In this document: piece after piece, positions 1 through 15,481 of the stretch
Numbering within the stretch: position 1 is the stretch's first letter
Layout: every line of letters starts with the position of its first letter
DNA from: a virus
Lineage: Duplodnaviria > Heunggongvirae > Uroviricota > Caudoviricetes
Virus record (IMG/VR): IMGVR_UViG_2639762873_000006
Span: 1 to 27,572 of that record
Reading direction: 5' to 3' (one strand)
DNA: 27,572 nucleotides
Position numbers and translations under genes: made by a program
The notes under the pieces: model-generated
Told to the model about the DNA's origin: nothing
Seen by the model: only the letters and a program-made list of their open reading frames with translations
Database searches by the model: none

Positions 1-294
1 ATGTCTAAGGGTGTATCTACTGATTTGATCATTAAGGCACATGATTTAGGATTCAAGATTAACGAGATTGATAATCGTGTAACGGGAATGTTTCATGTAG
101 TAATTAGTTCCCGTCATAATGAGCGTGAATTATTCAGTATGTTTCTTATGTCTGGTGGCTTGTTCCATTGGGAAAAGAACATCAATTTACCCAAGAGTGT
201 AACCGATAAGATCACTATTGCCCGATTCGATGGTGAACGTGCTTTCACTTCATTACTAGAAGTAGTATCCGAAGAAATTACTAACGTACATTAA
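1..294 (+). CDS. hypothetical protein (ATG at window position 1; may extend upstream of the window)
   Basis: 97-aa ORF from the six-frame track; followed by a hairpin at 299-337; no recognisable motif. Confidence 0.4.
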   Translation: MSKGVSTDLIIKAHDLGFKINEIDNRVTGMFHVVISSRHNERELFSMFLMSGGLFHWEKNINLPKSVTDKITIARFDGERAFTSLLEVVSEEITNVH

Positions 295-298
295 TCAA

Positions 299-337
299 TT
301 AACACTACTAGTACCGGAAATATACTGGTAGTGTTAA
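299..337 (+). terminator. imperfect hairpin after first ORF (about 13-bp stem, one mismatch)
   Basis: TTAACACTACTAG ... CTGGTAGTGTTAA inverted repeat directly after the stop at 292-294; no clear T-run. Confidence 0.3.
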
Positions 338-615
338 TATGGACACTCTATGAAAAAATTAACCTTTACTTACCTTGCGGCTGCAAATTTCTTTTTCTTC
401 ATTGCTGGGATCTTTACATGCGTATTAGTTGTATTGCAGGTGGACTTATAACCGAAGTTTTCGACGATCACGACCGAAAGGTAGGGGCGGTCACTATGTC
501 TAAGCATCCCCGACACATCAACAAGCCTTTTAGTGATGGTAAGAAGTGGCACACTACCTATAACGAAGCACTATTGAGCTTACTTACTAGAAAACGCGTC
601 AACATTAAGCTATGA
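331..615 (+). CDS. hypothetical protein, start uncertain (GTG at 331; internal ATG at 496 would give a 39-aa basic peptide)
   Basis: ORF whose stop overlaps the next start as ATGA (612-615), suggesting translational coupling; N-terminal half is Cys/Trp-rich and looks unlike protein. Confidence 0.3.
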   Translation: MLIWTLYEKINLYLPCGCKFLFLHCWDLYMRISCIAGGLITEVFDDHDRKVGAVTMSKHPRHINKPFSDGKKWHTTYNEALLSLLTRKRVNIKL

Positions 616-833
616 ATGATCTACATGAGCTAAACGTACTCTATATAGATACAGTACGGAAACTTACCGAAGAAGATCTACTAGGTGAATTTGGTCTTAC
701 CAGTGAGATGATAAACACTTTGAAGGAGATCCCACTTGCAAATATAGTTAAACTAACCGATTGTACTCAGTTACTGTTAAAACCAAATGAGGCTGTATTA
801 TGGGAAGCATTAAAAGCATTACCGCAAAAATGA
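612..833 (+). CDS. hypothetical protein (73 aa)
   Basis: ORF with ATGA overlap to both the upstream and downstream genes. Confidence 0.5.
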   Translation: MNDLHELNVLYIDTVRKLTEEDLLGEFGLTSEMINTLKEIPLANIVKLTDCTQLLLKPNEAVLWEALKALPQK

Positions 834-1483
834 TCAGTACGATTCTGAATGATGATTTTAATGTAGGTATGTTGACTGCCGACGCAACAGGCCGCAATGC
901 ACTGGCAAACGTCAACGAAGAAGATATAGATACACTTATTCAACGCCTGGGCGAAGTGAAGGACTATGTAAGCACACTACGTACCGAGCGACTAAACGAA
1001 GCTAAGAAGCTATTAGAATCACTTGTACAAGAGTCTGGTAGCTTCTCTAGTGTAGAGGAACTGCTTTCTACACTTGCCGTATCTTCTCCTGCTTCCATAC
1101 CACAAAAAGCATCGAAGCCAAACGGTAATAAGATATTCGAAGTAGTCATAGTTGATAGCAAGAAGGACGAAAGAAGAACCTATAATGTAATCAATAAGAA
1201 GTTACCAGCGGCATTACTCAAGGATGAAGTATACATTCAGTTGGTTAAGAAGAATCCCGAACTATCGGACGTTGACGAGTTTTTACGGGCGTATAGTGAG
1301 GACTATCGCAAAAAATACCCGCTTAATGCGAAGTGGAACGGTCATGAGTTCCATCTAAACCAGAAAGGGAAGATGAACGCGAAAGCACAAGAATACTACG
1401 CCGAGTACAAGCAGCAGTATCCTAAACAGGCCGACGAGCAAGACTTTAAAGAACTTGTTACTAAAGCGTATAAGGTAGTATAA
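830..1483 (+). CDS. hypothetical protein with Lys-rich C-terminal half
   Basis: ORF 800-1483 in the track; ATG at 830 overlaps the upstream stop (ATGA), so 830 is preferred. Confidence 0.5.
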   Translation: MISTILNDDFNVGMLTADATGRNALANVNEEDIDTLIQRLGEVKDYVSTLRTERLNEAKKLLESLVQESGSFSSVEELLSTLAVSSPASIPQKASKPNGNKIFEVVIVDSKKDERRTYNVINKKLPAALLKDEVYIQLVKKNPELSDVDEFLRAYSEDYRKKYPLNAKWNGHEFHLNQKGKMNAKAQEYYAEYKQQYPKQADEQDFKELVTKAYKVV

Positions 1484-1490
1484 GAATAAC

Positions 1491-1523
1491 AATAGCTACT
1501 ACACAAATAAAGTAGTAGCTATT
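1491..1523 (+). terminator. perfect 12-bp stem hairpin (AATAGCTACTAC / GTAGTAGCTATT, 9-nt loop)
   Basis: Inverted repeat read directly from the sequence just after the stop at 1481-1483; no T-run, so it may be a processing or attenuation site rather than an intrinsic terminator. Confidence 0.45.
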
Positions 1524-1591
1524 ACTAAATATCATAGCTATAATAATTCACATCAAACATCACCTCACACAATCACTACAAGGATTTACTA

Positions 1592-1972
1592 ATGAAAAAT
1601 CTCTTTACCCTAGCTGTACTCGCTACGGCTACAATCACTACTGGCTGTACTACTATAACGCCTGCTTTTATGAATGAAGCCGTAGTAGGTGATATTAACG
1701 GTCGTACACTAGTATTATTCCCCGTAAATGGTGGTAAAGAGTATCGCCCACAATTCAGTAGTGATTGTCAGCCTATGCTATTGGGTGAAGAACGCCCATC
1801 TACTGGTAGCTGTATTATTGCCGCCGACCGACTTACAAATATTCATAGCTTCGAAGAACATAAAGCCCACGGCCCCCACAAAAACACCACTAAGATAGTT
1901 GATCGTTCAAATAATTACGGTACAGAATTTGAGTTATCGAAACCAACTAATTATATAGACGATAATCTGTGA
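1592..1972 (+). CDS. putative lipoprotein (126 aa)
   Basis: N-terminus MKNLFTLAVLATATITTGC: basic residue, hydrophobic core, lipobox-like TTGC with Cys at about position 19; RBS AAGGA 8 nt upstream. Confidence 0.6.
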   Translation: MKNLFTLAVLATATITTGCTTITPAFMNEAVVGDINGRTLVLFPVNGGKEYRPQFSSDCQPMLLGEERPSTGSCIIAADRLTNIHSFEEHKAHGPHKNTTKIVDRSNNYGTEFELSKPTNYIDDNL

Positions 1973-2151
1973 TGAAGAAAACAATATTTGCCGTACTTTT
2001 AGTTATGGGGACTGCATATTACTATGATATAATAAAATACATTAACCCTACTTATTAAATTGCAGTCGCCGTAATCAAAAACACTGTCATTATCTGGCAT
2101 CAACAATGCCATTGATTCTGATAAAGTAGATAATCCCGAATGGATGAATTT

Positions 2152-2532
2152 ATGAAAAAGATTGTACTGTCTGCATTACTGTTAGTAGCCCCTTCGGTAC
2201 TGGCAGTAAATGTAATACTCCCTGATGATGGTTTATATCGTTGCGGTGTTGAATCGTGGGAACAGGTAGGAAAGCGAGTAGTAAAGACTGGTTATTATGG
2301 TATGACTGGTTATGTGAGTATTGATAACCGTGCTGTTAGTGTGAAGTTTAGGGATATGAATATTTCATTCAGCCCTGTTTCAAAACTTAAAAGCGGTCGC
2401 CTGATGGCCTATGCCGTAGATACTGACCAGTACGATATTATTATTAGTGCAATCAATGGTAAAACACAGTATATGGTCAGCAATGAGAATAATCCCGTAT
2501 TTTTGAACTTCTCCAATTGTATTATTGAATAA
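2152..2532 (+). CDS. secreted protein, paralog A (signal peptide MKKIVLSALLLVAPSVLA)
   Basis: Start at MKK chosen by alignment to paralog B; shared GLY(R/Q)C motif and C-terminal (F)(S/Q)NC(I/V) motif. Confidence 0.6.
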   Translation: MKKIVLSALLLVAPSVLAVNVILPDDGLYRCGVESWEQVGKRVVKTGYYGMTGYVSIDNRAVSVKFRDMNISFSPVSKLKSGRLMAYAVDTDQYDIIISAINGKTQYMVSNENNPVFLNFSNCIIE

Positions 2533-2541
2533 GGAATAGAA

Positions 2542-2928
2542 ATGAAAAAGGTTATCGTATCTGCATTACTGTTAGTAGCTCCTTCGGTACTGGCTAACAC
2601 TCACTCTCTACCAGAGCAGGGATTGTATCAATGTGATGTGAAAGTAGTTGAAATGCTGGGTGATACTCCAGTAGAAAAATCTTCTTATTCTGGTGCAGGT
2701 CACGCTAAAGTTAATAGTGATGGTTTTATCCTTAACTTCGGTGCAATGACTCACGCCACCGGACCAATAGAATCTAATGATTCAATGACAATGGCTTATG
2801 ATAATGATAAGCAGCGATACTTCCTTGCAACAATGGGAAGTAAAGAGCAAAACGATATTACTTTTATCTTCTTATTGAGATCTGATACTCGTAATTACTA
2901 CTTTCAAAACTGCGTTAAAATAAAATAA
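2542..2928 (+). CDS. secreted protein, paralog B (signal peptide MKKVIVSALLLVAPSVLA)
   Basis: RBS AAGGAA upstream; signal peptide nearly identical to paralog A at nucleotide level; mature part diverged. Confidence 0.65.
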   Translation: MKKVIVSALLLVAPSVLANTHSLPEQGLYQCDVKVVEMLGDTPVEKSSYSGAGHAKVNSDGFILNFGAMTHATGPIESNDSMTMAYDNDKQRYFLATMGSKEQNDITFIFLLRSDTRNYYFQNCVKIK

Positions 2929-2937
2929 GGGATATAT

Positions 2938-3147
2938 ATGTCAGAGAAACTAATTAAAGCAATCCGTAATATCACGGAATATAATATGAGTATTGAGCGT
3001 ATCATTGTTAGTACCGAAGACCAGCAACACTATTATAGTATTAATCCTTATAAGGAAACTGTAATAAAGGTAGCAGACCAATACGGCAAACCAATTGAAG
3101 GGGAAGTAGAAATACCACAAATACCGCCATTATTCGATACTAACTAA
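2938..3147 (+). CDS. hypothetical protein (69 aa)
   Basis: ORF with RBS AAGGGA; followed by an intrinsic terminator. Confidence 0.5.
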   Translation: MSEKLIKAIRNITEYNMSIERIIVSTEDQQHYYSINPYKETVIKVADQYGKPIEGEVEIPQIPPLFDTN

Positions 3148-3153
3148 TAATAT

Positions 3154-3180
3154 AGCCCACTAATAAAAGTGGGCTTTTTA
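3154..3180 (+). terminator. rho-independent terminator (AGCCCACT / AGTGGGCT stem, then TTTT)
   Basis: 8-bp perfect stem, 6-nt loop, T-run, directly after the stop at 3145-3147. Confidence 0.7.
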
Positions 3181-3198
3181 ATCTAATAAGGAAAGTAA

Positions 3199-3672
3199 AT
3201 GAAAATTATAAAAAACATTCCTTCACTTCCAGATGTAGAAGTGACACTAAGTAGCCGTACTAATGAAATTGTATTAGTACACAATACTAAAACTGGTCAT
3301 ACAGTAGTAGAGAATAATGATTCATGGTATGAGGGAAACACCGATAAAAAATCACATTGGGGTGATCATATCGATGATGCAGCAGCTTTTCATAGCTTCG
3401 CACAGAATCGCTGTACTAATCCCACTACTAAACCAGATCAAATTAGTGATTTAGCATTAGGTACGTTTTGCTTTCATAATGTATTAGAAGAAGATCTTGT
3501 ATTTGAAAACACTGATTACCATGCTGCAAGGTTATCCGGTATAGGTCGTGTAGTACCCACTGATTATAATAGTGTGACGGTATATGATCCAAATAATAAC
3601 CCACCAACCACTATTACAGGCGATGCAGCAGAAATTATAGTTCGCCTTCTATCAATGACAGTAACCAACTAA
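3199..3672 (+). CDS. hypothetical protein (157 aa)
   Basis: ORF with RBS AAGGAAA; no recognisable motif. Confidence 0.55.
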   Translation: MKIIKNIPSLPDVEVTLSSRTNEIVLVHNTKTGHTVVENNDSWYEGNTDKKSHWGDHIDDAAAFHSFAQNRCTNPTTKPDQISDLALGTFCFHNVLEEDLVFENTDYHAARLSGIGRVVPTDYNSVTVYDPNNNPPTTITGDAAEIIVRLLSMTVTN

Positions 3673-3678
3673 TAATCT

Positions 3679-3700
3679 AGCCCACTACTCACAGTGGGCT
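3679..3700 (+). repeat. second copy of the AGCCCACT / AGTGGGCT hairpin (different loop, no T-run)
   Basis: Same 8-bp stem as at 3154-3175 with conserved flanks (TAATAAT.TAG upstream, AATCTAA..AGGAAA downstream). Confidence 0.5.
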
Positions 3701-3725
3701 ATTCAATCTAACGAGGAAAAATATA

Positions 3726-4382
3726 ATGACAGGTAAAGAACTATTTGAAGAATTTATTATGCACGATCACCGCAAAGGACTTACATGTACTATTGATATT
3801 CGTCCTTCCAGTAAGCCGGGATTCGAACTAATCGGGGTAGGTCATTTCAATTTAGGTAAAGGTTATCGTTTCTATCTCAGCGAAGACTGCGTAGAAATCC
3901 GTGATAATCTATCCCGCTTACGTCATGAACATCGTAAAATAGTATCAGAACGGTTAGACGATCCAATAGAGGCACTAGATTCAATTATCTATTCTTCTCT
4001 ATATGGTGATTATCATGGCTGTACTAATCGTTATTTTGGCGGTGTATTAGTTCACTACGCATTAGAACTAAAATCAAAGATAACCGTAACTATATCTACT
4101 GATGAAAACTTATTGTTCAAAGATCTACCGCCAGATGTACAGGAAGAAATGAAGTATGATGTATATCTAAAAGATCGCAAACGTGTAGTAGCTTATGACT
4201 CATTACAATATAGTGATAATAAAGAATTTATCCTACAACACTATAAACCATGTGCCCCACATCCAAATCGTGTAGTATTCACAGATGGAACGGCAGAACA
4301 GCTACAAGATCAATCACCAGTACATATACCTGGCTATACTGAATACGTAACTAGCTATACTGGTAAACGCCACTTCAAGTAA
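3726..4382 (+). CDS. hypothetical protein (218 aa)
   Basis: ORF with RBS GAGGAAAA; no recognisable motif. Confidence 0.6.
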   Translation: MTGKELFEEFIMHDHRKGLTCTIDIRPSSKPGFELIGVGHFNLGKGYRFYLSEDCVEIRDNLSRLRHEHRKIVSERLDDPIEALDSIIYSSLYGDYHGCTNRYFGGVLVHYALELKSKITVTISTDENLLFKDLPPDVQEEMKYDVYLKDRKRVVAYDSLQYSDNKEFILQHYKPCAPHPNRVVFTDGTAEQLQDQSPVHIPGYTEYVTSYTGKRHFK

Positions 4383-4395
4383 TCCCATCCCCTAA

Positions 4396-4422
4396 ATACT
4401 CCTATACATGCTATAGGAGTAT
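4396..4422 (+). promoter_or_regulatory. perfect 11-bp stem hairpin whose 3' arm contains the GGAG Shine-Dalgarno of the next gene
   Basis: ATACTCCTATA catgc TATAGGAGTAT; GGAG at 4416-4419 lies in the right arm, 9 nt before the ATG at 4429. Confidence 0.4.
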
Positions 4423-4428
4423 CACACC

Positions 4429-4815
4429 ATGAATACAATCTACCTACACTTCCCTGATGGAACGTATAAGGCCATAGAAAGCACCACAGGCCGACAGGAA
4501 TCAGGATACATACCATCACGCAAGGATAAGCTAATAACCGCTCATATCATCACACAGGACGGTTACGAGCTATTCATAGATACCTATACACTAACGCTTA
4601 AGTATAAATACATTACATTAAACTACTCACGCTTCACCATAGGCCGTACTAATTACCCTATCAATGCACTAGATACATTCAGCGGTAGTGAGCTACCACA
4701 CTTAACCCGACTAAGGGAACTACGCGACGAGATCTTACAGTACCGTACCGTAGATGGTCTGCCTATCTCTTATCGTTGTGATGTAATCGTTAGTAATATG
4801 GTGATACTCAAGTAG
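4429..4815 (+). CDS. hypothetical protein (128 aa)
   Basis: ORF; its RBS is embedded in the upstream hairpin. Confidence 0.55.
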   Translation: MNTIYLHFPDGTYKAIESTTGRQESGYIPSRKDKLITAHIITQDGYELFIDTYTLTLKYKYITLNYSRFTIGRTNYPINALDTFSGSELPHLTRLRELRDEILQYRTVDGLPISYRCDVIVSNMVILK

Positions 4816-4991
4816 ATTGCATAGACAATGCATAAACAGTGAATAATAGAATGATGGTATACTTCGGTACTGATAGGTGAAACATATCAACATTATGTGC
4901 AATTTGTGCGATTTTATCGAAAAATGATGAAATAAATCAAAATAAAGGTTGACAGTCCAAAATTATCATAGGTTCTCCCAAAAATGGCAAA

Positions 4992-5013
4992 GAGGGCGAG
5001 TTTTCGCCGCGAG
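4992..5013. other. GC-rich island in an AT-rich non-coding region; candidate cos/terminase recognition element
   Basis: GAGGGCGAGTTTTCGCCGCGAG is the only GC-rich stretch in the 4816-5132 intergenic region, about 120 bp upstream of the terminase small subunit; contains a GGCGA/TCGCC hairpin and elements like those I recall from lambda cos (GGGCG, GTTTTCGC). Confidence 0.25.
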
Positions 5014-5132
5014 TTATAATAAAAATACGTGAGAAATTTTACATAAAACAAACAAATATATAGATAAAACCTATTAGTACCGAAATAGATAGAAAATACC
5101 AATCAATGGAAAATGAATAGGAATTGCATAAA

Positions 5133-5702
5133 ATGGCAAAAAATAAAGACGATGGAACCCGCTATTCCTGGCAAGAAATCGCCGACCGATTCGGCGTAGA
5201 ACATTCCACAGTATCGCGTATCTGGTCGGGGAAAGGATTAGATATTAGCTGGCCTAAGAAATTAGTAGACGACTGGTTACTAGCGAACGTAATCGAACCA
5301 ATGCGTAATGGTGATGTGAAGGGAATGATCCATAAAGCCACACTACGCAAACTAGAAGCAGAAGCAGACCTAAAAGAATTAGAACTACGACAGCAATCTG
5401 GTGAACTAATTCCGGTAGCAGTAGTACAGCAAACATTATCACAATATTTCTATCAACTACGTCAGGTACTAAGAAGTATACCGGCAGCAAGTTACGTAGA
5501 ACTATTTGAATCACAGGACGCTTTAGAATTAAAAATTAAATTACAGGACAAGATAGACCGCCAGCTAGAGGAAATAGGCGGCTATGAATATGAGGGAACA
5601 TATGAAGAACAACTACCAGAAGATGATGAAGATCCTAACGAGGGCGGCGAAGTCGATCCTACCTCCGAAGAAACAACTACCCGCAGAGTGGGTAGAGAGT
5701 AA
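5133..5702 (+). CDS. terminase small subunit (HTH DNA-binding, acidic C-terminus)
   Basis: Immediately upstream of the large terminase; helix-turn-helix-like SWQEIADRFGVEHSTVSRIW near the N-terminus; track start 5124 is TTG, so the first ATG at 5133 (RBS AGGAA) is preferred. Confidence 0.6.
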   Translation: MAKNKDDGTRYSWQEIADRFGVEHSTVSRIWSGKGLDISWPKKLVDDWLLANVIEPMRNGDVKGMIHKATLRKLEAEADLKELELRQQSGELIPVAVVQQTLSQYFYQLRQVLRSIPAASYVELFESQDALELKIKLQDKIDRQLEEIGGYEYEGTYEEQLPEDDEDPNEGGEVDPTSEETTTRRVGRE

Positions 5703-12046: not shown

Positions 12047-15000
12047 ATGGCAGATCAAATTTTTACAGGGAGTGGTTTTAAATTATTTTATAATGACGAT
12101 ACCGCAAACCGTATCCCCGATAACGCAGGGAACGAGCTAGTAAATGAATTGGCGGCTATGCCTTCATTCGGTATTGATAGCCAAGTACAAACTATTGAAG
12201 TATATAACAGTGAATTTTCAGAGAAACTACTCGCAGAACAGAACGTAAACGATATTGATATTGTTGTTAACTACGTACCAGATTGCACCGCTCACGCATT
12301 TTTAGATCAAGCGACCGAAGATCAGACCGAGTTCCAGCTAACACTACAGTACGCCGTAACTGATGGTATCATCTCCTACAGTATGGTGAATGGTATGATT
12401 AGTTCCGCTCGCCTTGCTGGTGATAAAGACTCAGTAGTTACTAAATCATATACCTTTACCCCTACCGACGTTCTAGTACGTGATGGACAGGCACCATTGA
12501 GTACCGGACTAGTTGTAGGATCATATGGCGTAGGTAGTAACGGCGTAGACGTACCACAGTACGAACCACAGTTACCAAATGGCAACAGTTTTATCAAAGT
12601 ACCAGCAGCACGCAATGATAACCCAGCTAGTGCGGATCTAATGGGTATTGGTCTTATCGATTCCGGTACATTCTCCAGTATTGCAATGACTAAATCCGGT
12701 ACATTGGCAATCTATGCAAAGAACCAGAATACAGCATGGACGCGTATACTTACTGCAACTCAGATTAGTGATCAGTATGTACCACTTACGCGTAAGGTTA
12801 ATGGTAAAGCACTAAATGCAGATATTACTATTACTAAAGTAGATGTAGGACTAGGTAACGTAACTAATGATGCACAATTGAAAATAGCTAGTAACCTTTC
12901 TGATTTAAATAACGTCAACACAGCCCGTACTAACTTAAAAGTAGCTCGTTTTGAAGAAACTAGACCAGACCTAAGTACAATTTATTCTACTGATGATAAG
13001 TCTGGATATAAAGTAGTAGTACGTAGTGATGGCTATTGGGGTGCAATGAATGCAGACGGCACAGTCACTAAAGGTCTATCGATTGACATGGGCGGTACTG
13101 GTGCAAATACATTAGCACAAGCTCAAGCTAATCTAGGTATTGTAACTAGTGCGGCACAGGATGGAAAATATCTAGCTAAGGCAAGTAACCTTTCTGATTT
13201 ACCAAGTAAACCAACAGCCCGTACTAACTTAGGATTAGGTACAGCAGCTACATATAATGTAAGTAGTTCCGGTGCAAACGTTCCATTAATGAGTAGTGCA
13301 AATACGTGGACTGGAATACAATATTTTGGCAATGCACAATTTACATCTACCTATGTTAACCCGTTATTGATTCATAGTCCTACACCTACAATCTATTTGA
13401 AAGATACAGATACAAACGGCTTAGGGATGAAATTAATTGCAGATGGTAGTGTATTCCGTATGCAAGATGATACCTCCGCTGAAACGTGGGCTTTTTCTTA
13501 TAATTACAGTACGAAAGTAGTTACAATGCCATCCTTGCAACTTGCAACTAAACTACAAGTAGCAGAAGGCGGTACGGGTGCAACAAATTGGAAACAGGCA
13601 GCATATAACCTTAACGTTATGCCATATAACCGCAATAGTTTAACTGCAAGTGATAATCTCAATAATTTTGGTGGTCTTAATGCTGGTGTATATTTTTGTG
13701 CTTCAAGTGCTTATGCAACCCCTGCAAATAACTACCCAGAAGCTAACGCAGGTACAGTAATAGTTTATCAGAACGCCGCAAATAGTAGTGATGGTTGTAC
13801 ACAATTTTACTATCCATTCAATACTAACAAAGCATATAAACGTATTCTAAGATTTACCAGTCCAACTACTTCTACGTGGTCATCATGGGCAGAGATCCTA
13901 ACCTCCGAACATATTACCCCCGGTAATATCCCTCGTTTAAATGGTGGTAATACGTGGAATGGTAACCAATCTATTGATACTGGTTATCTAACACTAGGTT
14001 TAAAAAATACCAATGCAACCGCATTTGAAATTGGTAGCCAAACTACAAAAAACTCAGCTTATATTGACTTCCATACAAGCGGTTTAACTAATGACTATGA
14101 TACACGTATTATTGCAGAAACTACTACATCCACTGCAAATGGACAAGGTAAATTATCCTTCGTTGGTGGTGAGTTTAACTTTAATAATAATATTACAGGT
14201 CAGGGAAATATTACGGCTAATGCCTTTATCTCTAAAACTGTAGTTAGTGCAACTGGTGCTATCACTGGTGCAAGCCTCAATACTGGATCTGGTGCTATCA
14301 CTGGTGGTGCAATTAGCGGTACTACATTGACTACAACAGGAGCGGCGAAAGTAGGTAGTATTGATTCTACTGGTGGTCTATATGGGACTGGTGTAGTACA
14401 GGCAGATTCAGCCACTACTGGTACTTATATTAGAATGGGTAATGGTACAACTGATAACTATATCACAAGTAACAACTTCCCAGCAGGCGGTACACAACGC
14501 TATCTACAGTTCAAGAATGACGGTACTGTTAGAATCTCCGACCAGTTGATTATGCACAATAACTTAGATGCAAGTGGTAGCGACTTCCAAGTTACGGCTA
14601 ATAACTTCCGTATAGTAACTGGTGGTAATGGTCTACAGATCAAAAACAATTCAGGATCTGTATCATCTTATCTATCTGGCATTGGGTCTACTAACGTTCG
14701 CGAATGGTACATAGGTAAAGGTGGATCAGGTAAAGGGATTGCATGGTGGAACGATATGTCAGGCGGTCACGGTGTTGATTTAGGGGCAGATGGTAACATC
14801 ACATTAAATACCCTTGCCAGTACCGGAAACGTTAACATACGCGGTACTATGTCAACTACTGGTAGATTATCCGTAACAGGTGATGTAACAGCTTCCGGTA
14901 TAGTTAGAGCTAATACTACTTTTTCAGTTAATGGTACTAGTGGAACTTCTAACGCCCACCTATGGTACTACGGTCACACTGGAGCAAGTCGCGGCGTAAT

Positions 15001-15481
15001 CTATGCGGGAAGTGGCGGTACTATTAACTTCCGACCGGATCGTAATGATGCTGGGGGAGCTAATGGATACTCCGCAGCACTAGATTATACTGGTAAATTT
15101 ACTTGTATGTCGTTATCTCAAACATCCGACCAACGAGCTAAATATGATGCCGCTGATATTAGTGATTCACTAGGTAAGGTACTACAGCTAACTGGTAAGA
15201 CTTATAAAATGAAAGTTACACCAGAAGTAGAAGTAGATGGCGTGGGATTCTTTGCTCAGGAAGTAGAAAAATTCTTCCCAGAAGCTGTATCATCCGTTGG
15301 TAGTGCATATACTCAAGAAGGCGAAGAAATCGAAAACCCACTAGGTCTAGATTATCAGGCTATTTCTGTACTATATGCTGGGGCTATTAAAGAGCTAAAT
15401 GCTAAAGTAGAAGACCAACAATTACAACTCGATGAACTACGTGCTGTAGTAACTCAATTACTAATCGCACAGAATAAATAA
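12047..15481 (+). CDS. tail-tube-domain / tail-fibre fusion protein with C-terminal S74-type intramolecular chaperone domain
   Basis: Residues 1-150 align along their length with the 152-aa tube protein (15538-15996), roughly one-third identical by eye; two phage tail-fibre repeats (NLSDL...ARTNL); Gly/Thr/Ser/Asn-rich fibrous middle; C-terminal SDQRAKYD ... GFFAQEVEKFFPEAV ... coiled coil matches the S74 autoproteolytic chaperone pattern. Confidence 0.75.
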   Translation: MADQIFTGSGFKLFYNDDTANRIPDNAGNELVNELAAMPSFGIDSQVQTIEVYNSEFSEKLLAEQNVNDIDIVVNYVPDCTAHAFLDQATEDQTEFQLTLQYAVTDGIISYSMVNGMISSARLAGDKDSVVTKSYTFTPTDVLVRDGQAPLSTGLVVGSYGVGSNGVDVPQYEPQLPNGNSFIKVPAARNDNPASADLMGIGLIDSGTFSSIAMTKSGTLAIYAKNQNTAWTRILTATQISDQYVPLTRKVNGKALNADITITKVDVGLGNVTNDAQLKIASNLSDLNNVNTARTNLKVARFEETRPDLSTIYSTDDKSGYKVVVRSDGYWGAMNADGTVTKGLSIDMGGTGANTLAQAQANLGIVTSAAQDGKYLAKASNLSDLPSKPTARTNLGLGTAATYNVSSSGANVPLMSSANTWTGIQYFGNAQFTSTYVNPLLIHSPTPTIYLKDTDTNGLGMKLIADGSVFRMQDDTSAETWAFSYNYSTKVVTMPSLQLATKLQVAEGGTGATNWKQAAYNLNVMPYNRNSLTASDNLNNFGGLNAGVYFCASSAYATPANNYPEANAGTVIVYQNAANSSDGCTQFYYPFNTNKAYKRILRFTSPTTSTWSSWAEILTSEHITPGNIPRLNGGNTWNGNQSIDTGYLTLGLKNTNATAFEIGSQTTKNSAYIDFHTSGLTNDYDTRIIAETTTSTANGQGKLSFVGGEFNFNNNITGQGNITANAFISKTVVSATGAITGASLNTGSGAITGGAISGTTLTTTGAAKVGSIDSTGGLYGTGVVQADSATTGTYIRMGNGTTDNYITSNNFPAGGTQRYLQFKNDGTVRISDQLIMHNNLDASGSDFQVTANNFRIVTGGNGLQIKNNSGSVSSYLSGIGSTNVREWYIGKGGSGKGIAWWNDMSGGHGVDLGADGNITLNTLASTGNVNIRGTMSTTGRLSVTGDVTASGIVRANTTFSVNGTSGTSNAHLWYYGHTGASRGVIYAGSGGTINFRPDRNDAGGANGYSAALDYTGKFTCMSLSQTSDQRAKYDAADISDSLGKVLQLTGKTYKMKVTPEVEVDGVGFFAQEVEKFFPEAVSSVGSAYTQEGEEIENPLGLDYQAISVLYAGAIKELNAKVEDQQLQLDELRAVVTQLLIAQNK
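12890..12937 (+). repeat. tail-fibre repeat unit, copy 1 (48 nt)
   Basis: AGTAACCTTTCTGATTTA + 12 nt + ACAGCCCGTACTAACTTA; both 18-nt blocks identical to copy 2. Confidence 0.8.
13184..13231 (+). repeat. tail-fibre repeat unit, copy 2 (48 nt)
   Basis: Same two 18-nt blocks as copy 1 with a different 12-nt spacer; encodes SNLSDL....ARTNL. Confidence 0.8.

What the first reader, a model, noticed from the sequence alone, without database searches (positions are those of the whole stretch)
1..4815. Block of eleven small unknown genes next to the putative genome end
Left of the cos candidate lie eleven + strand ORFs of 69-218 aa with no motif I recognise, apart from the export signals. Several are translationally coupled (ATGA overlaps at 612, 830) and others are insulated by strong hairpins. 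This layout is typical of accessory/moron or anti-defence regions and is the most likely place for an undescribed function in this window.
Basis: inference. Interest (0 to 1): 0.55.

Follow-up and report, generated by a model that had tools for sequence, protein, structure and literature searches.

The report
Prophage cargo slot beside the terminase
The eleven small genes are real and have no named relatives; they are the non-structural arm of a rare E. coli prophage, in which phage-lineage genes flank a slot where cell-envelope and orphan genes are swapped at a conserved hairpin, which is an ordinary kind of phage region.

Summary
Eleven + strand ORFs, plus a twelfth of 28 aa, fill 1-4815, and strong intergenic hairpins are present. 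Corrections: ORF4 most likely starts at 800, not 830, and ORF2 is 65 aa.

The window is the right 27.5 kb of a ~32.5 kb prophage inserted in E. coli yegD by a large serine recombinase. The block lies just upstream of a lambda-type terminase.

None of the ORFs reaches a curated cut-off in Pfam, NCBIfam, PHROGs or PADLOC, or matches any of 50,697 phage or 72,556 plasmid records.

Comparison with relatives splits the block:
- ORF1-5 and ORF11 recur in the same order in prophages of other genera whose terminase is only 44-54% identical. They are lineage genes, not morons.
- ORF6-10 is a cargo slot with four arrangements among near-identical E. coli prophages. Junctions fall at a conserved hairpin (AGCCCACT…AGTGGGCT).

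ORF6 and ORF7 belong to a tiny new family of periplasmic disulfide-stapled β-barrels. The fold resembles PliC/MliC, and some relatives are fused to an LprI domain.

I found no evidence for anti-defence. This is a new member of a known kind of region, and interest is modest.

The parts
1..294 (+). ORF1, 97 aa, cytoplasmic, function unknown; semi-conserved lineage gene
   Evidence: pN/pS 0.18. 45% identical homologue at the same position in the Enterobacter hormaechei prophage L029/L030. Weak full-length match to phrog_6147, function unknown, E 0.005. Replaced in L099.
298..338 (.). 16-bp-arm palindrome/hairpin between ORF1 and ORF2, overlapping a promoter-like pair of hexamers
   Evidence: Inverted repeat I13, 94% complementary. 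RNA fold -19.7 kcal/mol, z -5.8. TTAACA-16-TATACT, 10 of 12 matches, at 299-326. Absent from the Enterobacter relative, where the two genes are 8 nt apart.
418..615 (+). ORF2, 65 aa, basic (pI 10.0); the most conserved gene of the block
   Evidence: 82% identical in L029/L030, where TerL is 45% identical. pN/pS 0.16. pI. Its stop overlaps the ORF3 start as ATGA at 612.
612..833 (+). ORF3, 73 aa, acidic helical protein with weak FlhD-like / sigma-70 region-4-like similarity
   Evidence: Pfam FlhD E 0.003, 18.1 bits against a cut-off of 27. NCBIfam FlhD E 0.001. Profile search of PDB: FlhD E 0.09-0.6, sigma-70 region 4 E 0.13. 52% homologue in L029.
800..1483 (+). ORF4, 227 aa: acidic helical N-domain, disordered linker, basic α/β C-domain with no known fold match; conserved lineage gene
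1491..1523 (+). 12-bp perfect stem-loop after ORF4
   Evidence: -15.4 kcal/mol, z -7.6.
1592..1972 (+). ORF5, 126 aa, predicted outer-membrane lipoprotein
   Evidence: Lipobox ITTG|C with Thr at +2. Only credible lipobox ORF in the window. 52% homologue in L029 and 39% in L018. pN/pS 0.39. No family or PDB match.
1972..2058 (+).
   Evidence: TGATG overlap with the ORF5 stop. Protein sequence identical in every close relative that carries it; the one variant allele has 3 synonymous and 0 non-synonymous changes.
2152..2532 (+). ORF6, 126 aa, periplasmic 9-stranded β-barrel with Cys in the first and last strands; start of the variable slot (breakpoint at 2370)
2542..2928 (+). ORF7, 128 aa, diverged tandem paralogue of ORF6
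   Evidence: 31% identical to ORF6 as protein, with both Cys invariant. The 53 nt that encode the signal peptide are 89% identical between the two genes (D3). Replaced in L004/L019/L099.
2938..3147 (+). ORF8, 69 aa, acidic, function unknown; cargo
   Evidence: 31% homologues at the same position in L011/L012/L014. Absent from L004/L019/L099.
3139..3194 (+). Junction element copy 1: stop, hairpin AGCCCACT-6-AGTGGGCT, U-run, then the ribosome-binding site of the next gene
   Evidence: Direct repeat D1. Bidirectional terminator-like site. The L007 deletion breakpoint is at 3182. Alignment of junctions.
3199..3672 (+). ORF9, 157 aa orphan; single-gene cassette flanked by the 56-nt repeat
   Evidence: No relative in IMG/VR. 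Absent from L007 and L099. GC3 0.21. pN/pS 0.63.
3664..3719 (+). Junction element copy 2 (84% identical to copy 1)
3726..4382 (+). ORF10, 218 aa near-orphan; cassette that also occurs without ORF9
   Evidence: Only 3 other clusters among 5.8 billion (96%, 84%, 39% identity). In L099 it follows a 152-aa lipoprotein gene and one hairpin copy. GC3 0.24. No PDB match.
4396..4422 (+). Hairpin whose 3' arm holds the AGGAG ribosome-binding site of ORF11; it belongs to the ORF11 module
   Evidence: -12.9 kcal/mol, z -5.4. Kept next to ORF11 in L007 and L099, which lack ORF9+ORF10 and ORF9 respectively. Its outer arms are recognisable in Cronobacter L027.
4429..4815 (+). ORF11, 128 aa, conserved gene that lies next to or close upstream of terS/cos
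   Evidence: 43-68% homologues upstream of terS in L011-L015, L017, L022 and L027-L030, and 33% in L101. In L011, L012 and L017 a T5orf172-like gene lies between it and terS; in L100 a 71-aa gene does. pN/pS 0.14. No family or PDB match.

Best explanation
The block is the non-structural arm that precedes cos and the terminase in a temperate, cos-packaging, siphovirus-like prophage that integrates into yegD with a large serine recombinase. It has two layers.

(1) Lineage genes: ORF1-ORF5 and ORF11. They are kept in order across genera and are under purifying selection.
- ORF2 (basic), ORF3 (acidic, weakly FlhD/HTH-like) and ORF4 (acidic helical N-domain plus basic C-domain) have overlapping reading frames.
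- They most likely act together in the cytoplasm on DNA or transcription as part of the phage's own programme.
- ORF11 travels with the packaging module.

(2) A cargo slot between ORF5 and ORF11, here holding ORF6-ORF10.
- Single genes are inserted, lost or swapped by recombination at a conserved ~56-nt junction: stop codon, hairpin AGCCCACT…AGTGGGCT, then a ribosome-binding site. This junction probably also terminates or insulates transcription.
- In this phage the recognisable products of ORF5-ORF7 are envelope proteins: an outer-membrane lipoprotein with a coupled 28-aa membrane peptide (ORF5 itself is semi-conserved), and two diverging periplasmic disulfide-stapled β-barrels.
- These most likely serve the lysogen, by superinfection exclusion or by binding and inhibiting an incoming cell-wall hydrolase.

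What is shown: gene reality, conservation pattern, breakpoints, hairpins, the fold of ORF6, and periplasmic targeting signals. What is inferred: every biochemical function and the timing of expression.
For: Context:
- yegD is split by the element, and a 532-aa serine recombinase sits at the left end.
- A GpA-type TerL and a terS lie immediately downstream of the block.

Two layers:
- The tblastn matrices show ORF1-5 and ORF11 retained at 43-82% identity where TerL is 44-54% identical.
- ORF6-10 are present or absent among prophages with TerL 96-99% identical.
- Four arrangements exist: the window; L007, which lacks 3183-4390; L004/L019, which replace 2371-3186; and L099, which has ORF10 without ORF9.
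- pN/pS is 0.07-0.18 for ORF1, 2, 4 and 11, against 0.21-0.63 for ORF6-9; ORF3 (0.67) and ORF5 (0.39) are exceptions.
- GC3 is ~0.44 for ORF2, 4 and 11, against 0.21-0.24 for ORF9 and 10.

Junction element:
- A 56-nt direct repeat flanks ORF9.
- The same hairpin lies after the 152-aa lipoprotein gene in L099 and just before the ORF11 homologue in Cronobacter.
- It gave 0 matches in 100 shuffles of the window.

Cargo nature of the slot: relatives carry there a type-IV-restriction-like HNH protein (PADLOC E 1.6e-9), an EAL-domain protein, T5orf172, DUF726 and unrelated lipoproteins.

Envelope products:
- Lipobox in ORF5.
- Signal peptides, two invariant Cys and a confident β-barrel model for the ORF6/7 family.
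- Other family members are anchored by a transmembrane segment or fused to LprI, always with the barrel outside the cytoplasm.
- PliC, PhiA and ACP lysozyme inhibitors are among the closest folds with the lowest rmsd.

Precedents:
- Prophage morons that serve the lysogen (PMC3594210).
- The periplasmic lysozyme inhibitor Spackle of T4, which acts in exclusion (PMC7677548).
- The T5 lipoprotein Llp (PMC9586334).
Against: - There are no expression data, and promoter-like sites are no more frequent than chance (24 found, 21.9 expected).
- Only one hairpin has a U-run, so the others may not terminate transcription.
- The PliC/MliC motifs are absent.
- The LprI domain itself has no proven link to lysozyme (PMC7933661).
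- ORF1 and ORF2 are replaced in one close relative (L099), so 'lineage gene' is a matter of degree.
- ORF3's similarity to FlhD is below every curated cut-off.
- ORF4 has no fold match, so a DNA-related role rests only on charge and architecture.
Confidence: 0.55

Rival explanations
1. Anti-defence locus: the small genes encode inhibitors of host immune systems, expressed early in infection.
For: Small, fast-changing orphan genes clustered near a genome end are typical of anti-defence regions. ORF8-10 are cytoplasmic orphans with no homologues. ORF1 has a non-significant match to a PHROG named anti-restriction protein (E 0.15).
Against: - No significant match to any known protein.
- The recognisable products of ORF5-7 are exported (lipoprotein, periplasmic barrels), which cannot inhibit cytoplasmic immune systems.
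- Relatives carry defence-like cargo, not anti-defence cargo, in the same slot.
- The block lies at the far end of the non-structural arm, directly upstream of the terminase genes, rather than next to the recombinase and RHH genes at its start.
Confidence: 0.1
2. The whole block is essential phage machinery of an unrecognised kind: a late-gene activator, replication functions or packaging accessory factors. The variation among relatives is module replacement by analogues, not cargo.
For: - This prophage has no recognisable replication or late-regulation genes anywhere.
- ORF1-4 and ORF11 are conserved and constrained.
- ORF2-3-4 have overlapping frames, and ORF3 is weakly FlhD/HTH-like.
- FlhDC-family activators drive other mobile elements (PMC4207636, PMC4542580).
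- ORF11 always sits near terS.
Against: - ORF9 and ORF10 are simply absent, not replaced, in L007, whose TerL is 97% identical.
- ORF6-8 are exported or swapped for lipoproteins.
Confidence: 0.2
3. ORF5 and ORF5b (and perhaps ORF6/7) are lysis genes, that is an outer-membrane spanin lipoprotein with a membrane partner, placed away from the endolysin.
For: - ORF5 is the only lipoprotein candidate in the window.
- Most of the relatives examined carry some lipoprotein gene in this region.
- An 88-aa protein with a transmembrane segment and a coiled coil lies beside the endolysin without a lipoprotein partner.
Against: - ORF5 is 23 kb from the endolysin at 25453-25905.
- Its mature part is ~108 aa, which by my own recollection of lambda Rz1 (~40 aa mature, 10 Pro) is larger and less proline-rich than known o-spanins.
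- ORF5b, at 28 aa, is too short for an inner-membrane spanin.
- The lipoproteins of relatives are unrelated to each other and vary in number (up to two per slot in those examined), as cargo does.
Confidence: 0.07

Closest known systems
Moron / accessory regions of temperate phages (HK97 gp15, lambda bor and lom; PMC3594210)
   Same: Genes are present or absent between near-identical phages. They are bounded by hairpins and encode membrane or envelope proteins of the kind that protect lysogens. They lie next to the late operon.
   Different: No independent promoter could be shown. The GC difference is slight. Half of the block (ORF1-5, ORF11) is conserved across genera and so is not 'more DNA'. 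Expression from the repressed prophage was not tested.
Hyperplastic regions of T4-type phages with PeSL junction motifs (PMC2839356, PMC4122927)
   Same: Small orphan genes are shuffled one at a time. Breakpoints fall at a conserved intergenic stem-loop that recurs at each junction and is duplicated around an inserted gene.
   Different: This is a temperate siphovirus-like prophage. The junction motif here is a hairpin plus a ribosome-binding site with no recognisable early promoter. Only a few copies are known, all within one prophage family.
MliC/PliC, PhiA and Neisseria ACP periplasmic lysozyme inhibitors (PDB 3OE3, 4MIR, 7DPY, 6GQ4; PMC5507604)
   Different: - No PF09864 match.
- The SxSGAxY and YxxxTKG motifs are not conserved.
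- Nine predicted strands instead of eight.
- Equally good or better structural matches to unrelated barrels (Cap15, designed barrels, GrlR).
- Activity untested.
FlhD, and FlhDC-family activators of mobile elements (SetCD, AcaCD; PMC4207636, PMC4542580)
   Same: ORF3 is a ~70-aa helical protein that aligns with FlhD residues 8-65. It is followed by an overlapping ~200-aa gene, as flhD is followed by flhC.
   Different: Scores are below the curated cut-offs. ORF4 has no Cys cluster and no FlhC-like fold. In relatives ORF3 and ORF4 can be separated by other genes.

Membership tests
Moron (as defined in PMC3594210) | Extra DNA compared with closely related phages | tested here: met
   Met for ORF9-10 (absent from L007), ORF9 alone (absent from L099), and ORF7-8 plus the C-terminal half of ORF6 (replaced in L004/L019). 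Not met for ORF1-5 and ORF11, which persist across genera.
Moron (as defined in PMC3594210) | [quoted passage not shown] | tested here: inconclusive
   ORF9 and ORF10 have GC3 0.21-0.24, against 0.26-0.37 in structural genes and ~0.44 in ORF2, 4 and 11. Overall GC of the block is 0.379, against 0.390 for the rest.
Moron (as defined in PMC3594210) | Own promoter and terminator | tested here: inconclusive
   Hairpins are enriched (10 found, 2.9 ± 1.9 expected) but only one has a U-run. Promoter-like sites are at chance level (24 found, 21.9 expected).
Moron (as defined in PMC3594210) | Expressed from the repressed prophage | not testable with these tools
   Needs RNA-seq or reporter fusions in a lysogen.
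MliC/PliC lysozyme inhibitors (PF09864) | Match to the family profile | tested here: not met
   No PF09864 match for ORF6, ORF7 or seven other family members and profile-search hits. A family profile finds no MliC or PliC chain in PDB at E ≤ 10.
MliC/PliC lysozyme inhibitors (PF09864) | Eight-stranded antiparallel β-barrel with a β1-β8 disulfide | tested here: met
MliC/PliC lysozyme inhibitors (PF09864) | Conserved motifs SxSGAxY (loop 4) and YxxxTKG (β6) (PMC5507604) | tested here: not met
   ORF7 alone has SYSGAGH, in the β2-β3 loop. ORF6 has YYGMTGY there and other members differ. No YxxxTKG is present.
MliC/PliC lysozyme inhibitors (PF09864) | Inhibits c-type lysozyme | not testable with these tools
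   Needs purified protein and a lysozyme assay.
FlhD (PF05247) | Score above the curated cut-off | tested here: not met
   ORF3 scores 18.1 bits against a cut-off of 27 (Pfam), and 19.2 against 90 (NCBIfam). The profile search of PDB finds FlhD at E 0.09-0.6.
FlhD (PF05247) | FlhC-type partner with a zinc-binding Cys cluster | tested here: not met
H-NS family | Sequence or profile similarity to H-NS | tested here: not met
Bacterial lipoprotein | Signal peptide ending in a lipobox with an invariant Cys | tested here: met
   ORF5 begins MKNLFTLAVLATATITTG|C. This was the only credible hit of a lipobox pattern scan of both strands. The L018 homologue has LSTG|C.
Known anti-phage defence systems (PADLOC) | Match to a defence protein model | tested here: not met
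   Ten of the ORFs (ORF2 was not scanned against PADLOC) give no match better than E 0.015. A relative's 241-aa HNH cargo gene does match a type IV restriction model (E 1.6e-9).
Anti-defence proteins | Homology to a characterised inhibitor of a defence system | not testable with these tools
   No dedicated library was available. PHROGs gives only E 0.15 to an 'anti-restriction' family for ORF1.

The most novel reading that the evidence does not exclude
ORF6 and ORF7 would found a new, fast-diversifying family of prophage-borne periplasmic β-barrel proteins that bind and inhibit cell-wall hydrolases, such as tail lysins of incoming phages, lysozymes or secreted muramidase toxins. They would give the lysogen exclusion or immunity, be analogous in fold to PliC/MliC and in role to T4 Spackle, and be shuffled as cassettes, even as half-genes, at a dedicated hairpin junction.
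Probability: 0.2. Interest if true: 0.55.

Novelty: new member of a known kind. Interest (0 to 1): 0.3.

Why it matters
The result turns a list of eleven unknown genes into a map. It says which genes belong to the phage lineage and should be tested for regulation or packaging: ORF2-4 and ORF11. It says which are exchangeable cargo and should be tested for effects on the lysogen's envelope: ORF5-7.

It also yields three concrete leads:
- A new periplasmic barrel family found only in enterobacterial prophages.
- A conserved protein domain (ORF4 C-terminus) with no known fold match.
- A junction hairpin that marks where cassettes are exchanged.

The prophage family itself integrates by a serine recombinase and has no recognisable replication or regulatory genes. 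It has no close relative among sequenced isolated phages, where TerL is at most 37% identical.

Tried and rejected

2. ORF6/7 as true MliC/PliC members. There is no profile match, and the motifs are absent or misplaced. Foldseek gives only generic barrels. Kept as fold-level resemblance only.

4. Profile search of 1.84 billion representative proteins with the ORF6/7 family. It gave only 12 hits. The two multi-domain ones are spurious Ig matches, and there is no link to a named family.

5. DNA and protein searches of all eleven ORFs against phage and plasmid records found nothing.

6. A scan of species-representative genomes for ORF4 relatives found nothing.

7. PDB matches of ORF3 to designed armadillo repeats, and of ORF9 to designed propeller and trefoil proteins, are artefacts of summed repeats.

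8. The junction hairpin as a widespread repeat family. The 68 hits in IMG/VR are, by my rough estimate, about what chance gives for 17 fixed bases, so it is specific to this prophage family.

9. The AlphaFold-database fold library was not available.

Full report
**What the window is.** ORF10's exact protein is encoded on many E. coli contigs (126 index blocks). Its neighbours are always the same: a 532-aa serine recombinase about 9 kb upstream of ORF10, then small genes, then the block, then terS, a GpA-type TerL (PF05876/PF20454), portal, capsid and tail genes. In the complete genome NZ_CM135810.1 the element splits the host gene yegD (record positions 117,656 and 150,157). That gives a ~32.5 kb prophage. 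The window runs from the ORF1 start codon to the last ORF before the right-hand junction. GC is 38-39%, which by my own knowledge is well below the ~51% of the E. coli chromosome. Only 2 of 5,426 complete E. coli genomes carry the block. No isolated phage matches it at DNA level, and the best TerL match among 50,697 phage records is 37%. The block therefore sits at the end of the non-structural arm, directly before the packaging genes. I did not test the cos site itself.

**Checking the observation.** The eleven ORFs are there, all on the + strand, with no tRNA or Rfam element. They are genes:
- pN/pS against near-identical alleles is 0.07-0.67.
- Diverged homologues exist for all except ORF9.
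- Most have good ribosome-binding sites.

Three corrections apply:
- ORF2 starts at 418 (65 aa).
- ORF4 most likely starts at 800, not 830. There is a GAGG 8 nt upstream of 800, and all but one of the 26 aligned homologues extend upstream of 830. The ORF3/ORF4 overlap is therefore 34 nt rather than ATGA.
- A 28-aa membrane peptide gene (1972-2058) overlaps the ORF5 stop. It varies only synonymously.

The ATGA at 612 is genuine. Five intergenic stem-loops are much more stable than shuffled sequence (z -3.1 to -7.6). Terminator-like sites are enriched (10 found, 2.9 expected), although only the one after ORF8 has a U-run. No ORF reaches a curated threshold in Pfam, PHROGs, NCBIfam or PADLOC. A concatenate of all eleven proteins finds nothing by tblastn in phage or plasmid records.

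**The block has two layers.** I compared the ORFs with 30 related loci.

Among E. coli prophages whose TerL is 96-99% identical there are four arrangements:
- The window type: ORF5-6-7-8-9-10-11.
- L007, which lacks 3183-4390 (ORF9 and ORF10).
- L004/L019, in which 2371-3186 (the C-terminal half of ORF6, ORF7 and ORF8) is replaced by a different half-gene plus a 152-aa lipoprotein gene.
- L099/L100, which have that lipoprotein followed by ORF10 without ORF9, and also lack ORF1-2.

More distant members of the same TerL clade (82-93%) carry quite different genes here. These include a 241-aa HNH protein that matches a type IV restriction model (E 1.6e-9), a T5orf172/MUG113 protein, a DUF726 hydrolase and assorted lipoproteins.

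In contrast, prophages of Enterobacter hormaechei with TerL only 45% identical keep ORF1 (45%), ORF2 (82%), ORF3 (52%), ORF4 (49%), ORF5 (52%) and ORF11 (54%) in the same order. Cronobacter prophages (TerL 44-54%) keep ORF4 and ORF11, with an EAL-domain gene and three minus-strand genes between them.

ORF1, 2, 4 and 11 have the lowest pN/pS (0.07-0.18). ORF2, 4 and 11 share a higher GC3 (~0.44) than ORF9 and ORF10 (0.21-0.24).

I conclude that ORF1-5 and ORF11 are lineage genes, and that ORF6-10 occupy a cargo slot between ORF5 and ORF11.

**The junction element.** ORF9 is flanked by a 56-nt direct repeat (3139-3194 and 3664-3719, 84% identical). It consists of the preceding stop codon, the hairpin AGCCCACT-6-AGTGGGCT, and the ribosome-binding site of the next gene. 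The L007 deletion begins right after the first copy and ends at the next hairpin. In L099 one copy separates the lipoprotein gene from ORF10. The same hairpin sequence lies just before the ORF11 homologue in Cronobacter, where the proteins are only ~43% identical. The pattern gave 0 matches in 100 shuffles of the window. It is not a widespread repeat: the 68 IMG/VR hits are, by my rough estimate, near chance.

The hairpin at 4396-4422 belongs to ORF11. Its 3' arm contains ORF11's AGGAG, and it stays with ORF11 when the cassettes are absent.

The simplest reading is that the conserved junction serves both as a transcript end or insulator and as the short homology at which cassettes are exchanged. 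This is what PeSL motifs do in the hyperplastic regions of T4-type phages (PMC2839356, PMC4122927). The function of the hairpin is inferred, not shown.

**What the products are.**

*ORF5* has a lipobox and is the only credible lipoprotein in the window.

*ORF6 and ORF7* are tandem paralogues. They are 31% identical as proteins, but the DNA encoding their signal peptides is 89% identical.
- Their family is tiny: 18 clusters among 5.8 billion, and 12 representatives among 1.84 billion. Every member that a source assigns to an organism comes from Enterobacteriaceae.
- Members carry a signal peptide, an outward-facing membrane anchor, or an N-terminal LprI (PF07007) domain.
- The AlphaFold2 model of mature ORF6 is confident (pLDDT 93.8, pTM 0.86). 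It is an all-β barrel with the two invariant Cys in the first and last strands.
- A β1-β8 disulfide is the hallmark of that group (PMC5507604). M. tuberculosis LprI is PF07007 + MliC (PMC7933661), which parallels the fused relatives.
- Against membership: there is no PF09864 match, the two motifs are not conserved, and Foldseek finds only generic barrels at E > 0.01. I therefore do not file them as MliC/PliC. 'Periplasmic binder or inhibitor of a cell-wall hydrolase' is a hypothesis, at about 20%.

*ORF3* is repeatedly but weakly FlhD-like.

*ORF8, ORF9, ORF10 and ORF11* gave nothing.

**Mechanism.** I commit to the two-layer model stated under the best explanation, with confidence 0.55. The mosaic structure, the junction hairpin and the envelope targeting are well supported. 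All biochemical roles and the timing of expression are inferred.

The rivals are:
- An anti-defence locus (0.10). No evidence supports it, and the exported products argue against it.
- Essential but unrecognised machinery for the whole block (0.20). This is plausible for ORF1-4 and ORF11 only.
- A displaced spanin or lysis pair for ORF5/5b (0.07).

**Novelty and score.** Variable accessory regions with morons next to the late operon are a known kind of phage region, so this is a new member of it. Three things are new in detail: a periplasmic barrel family, a conserved domain with no fold match, and a family-specific junction hairpin. Interest is 0.3.

Noticed in passing
Outside the window: L001 1082-2680; L019 14034-16360; L020 11986-12657: The prophage is inserted in the host chaperone gene yegD and carries a 532-aa large serine recombinase at its left end. 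Relatives in Cronobacter and Enterobacter use a 597-600-aa serine recombinase and a different site, next to a PHP-domain gene.
   Followed up: partly
L001 2803-6067 (the ~3.5 kb upstream of window position 1): The rest of the non-structural arm holds a 61-aa membrane protein, a 50-aa RHH protein, an HNH-like 199-aa protein and four unknown genes. There is no recognisable repressor, replication or late-regulator gene. Some relatives carry a 645-954-aa helicase or primase-like gene there instead.
   Followed up: partly
window 4816-5123: The AT-rich intergenic region before terS holds a GC-rich island (GGGCGAGTTTTCGCCGCGAG, about 4993-5012) and a 19-nt inverted repeat (4860-4878 / 5069-5087). It was not tested here.
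   Followed up: no
window 5584-5702: The longest TerL ORF overlaps terS by 119 nt. Gene callers in different assemblies give TerL 561-637 aa, so the true TerL start is uncertain.
   Followed up: no
window 12047-15481: A 1144-aa protein, annotated in a relative as a 'pyocin knob domain-containing S74 family peptidase', lies between the head-tail joining genes and the tail tube gene. That is an unusual place for a fibre-like protein.
   Followed up: no
window 25159-25905 and 27279-27572: The 150-aa endolysin (glycoside hydrolase) is the only sizeable minus-strand gene. It is flanked by an 88-aa protein with a transmembrane segment and a coiled coil. The last ORF has two C-terminal hydrophobic segments (holin-like). 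No lipoprotein partner lies nearby.
   Followed up: partly
window 2370 (breakpoint); L004 8614-9003; L019 22152-22547: Recombination inside ORF6 produces chimeric barrels: the N-terminal half is shared, up to …NISFSP, and the C-terminal half is different. Diversification thus works at the level of half a domain.
   Followed up: partly
L010 4151-5297; L015 4972-6121; L018 4831-5734: Relatives carry a 241-aa HNH protein (intact in L010 and L015) that matches a type IV methyl-directed restriction model. In L010 and L015 a 139-140-aa secreted protein follows it in the same slot. In L018 the HNH gene is broken into fragments.
   Followed up: partly
L027/L028 9504-10187: Cronobacter prophages of this family carry an EAL-domain (c-di-GMP phosphodiesterase) gene in the cargo slot. 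It is a likely lysogenic-conversion gene.
   Followed up: no
window 418-615 versus L029 6619-6813: ORF2 is 82% identical between prophages whose TerL is only 45% identical. This means either unusually strong constraint on a 65-aa basic protein or a recent exchange.
   Followed up: no
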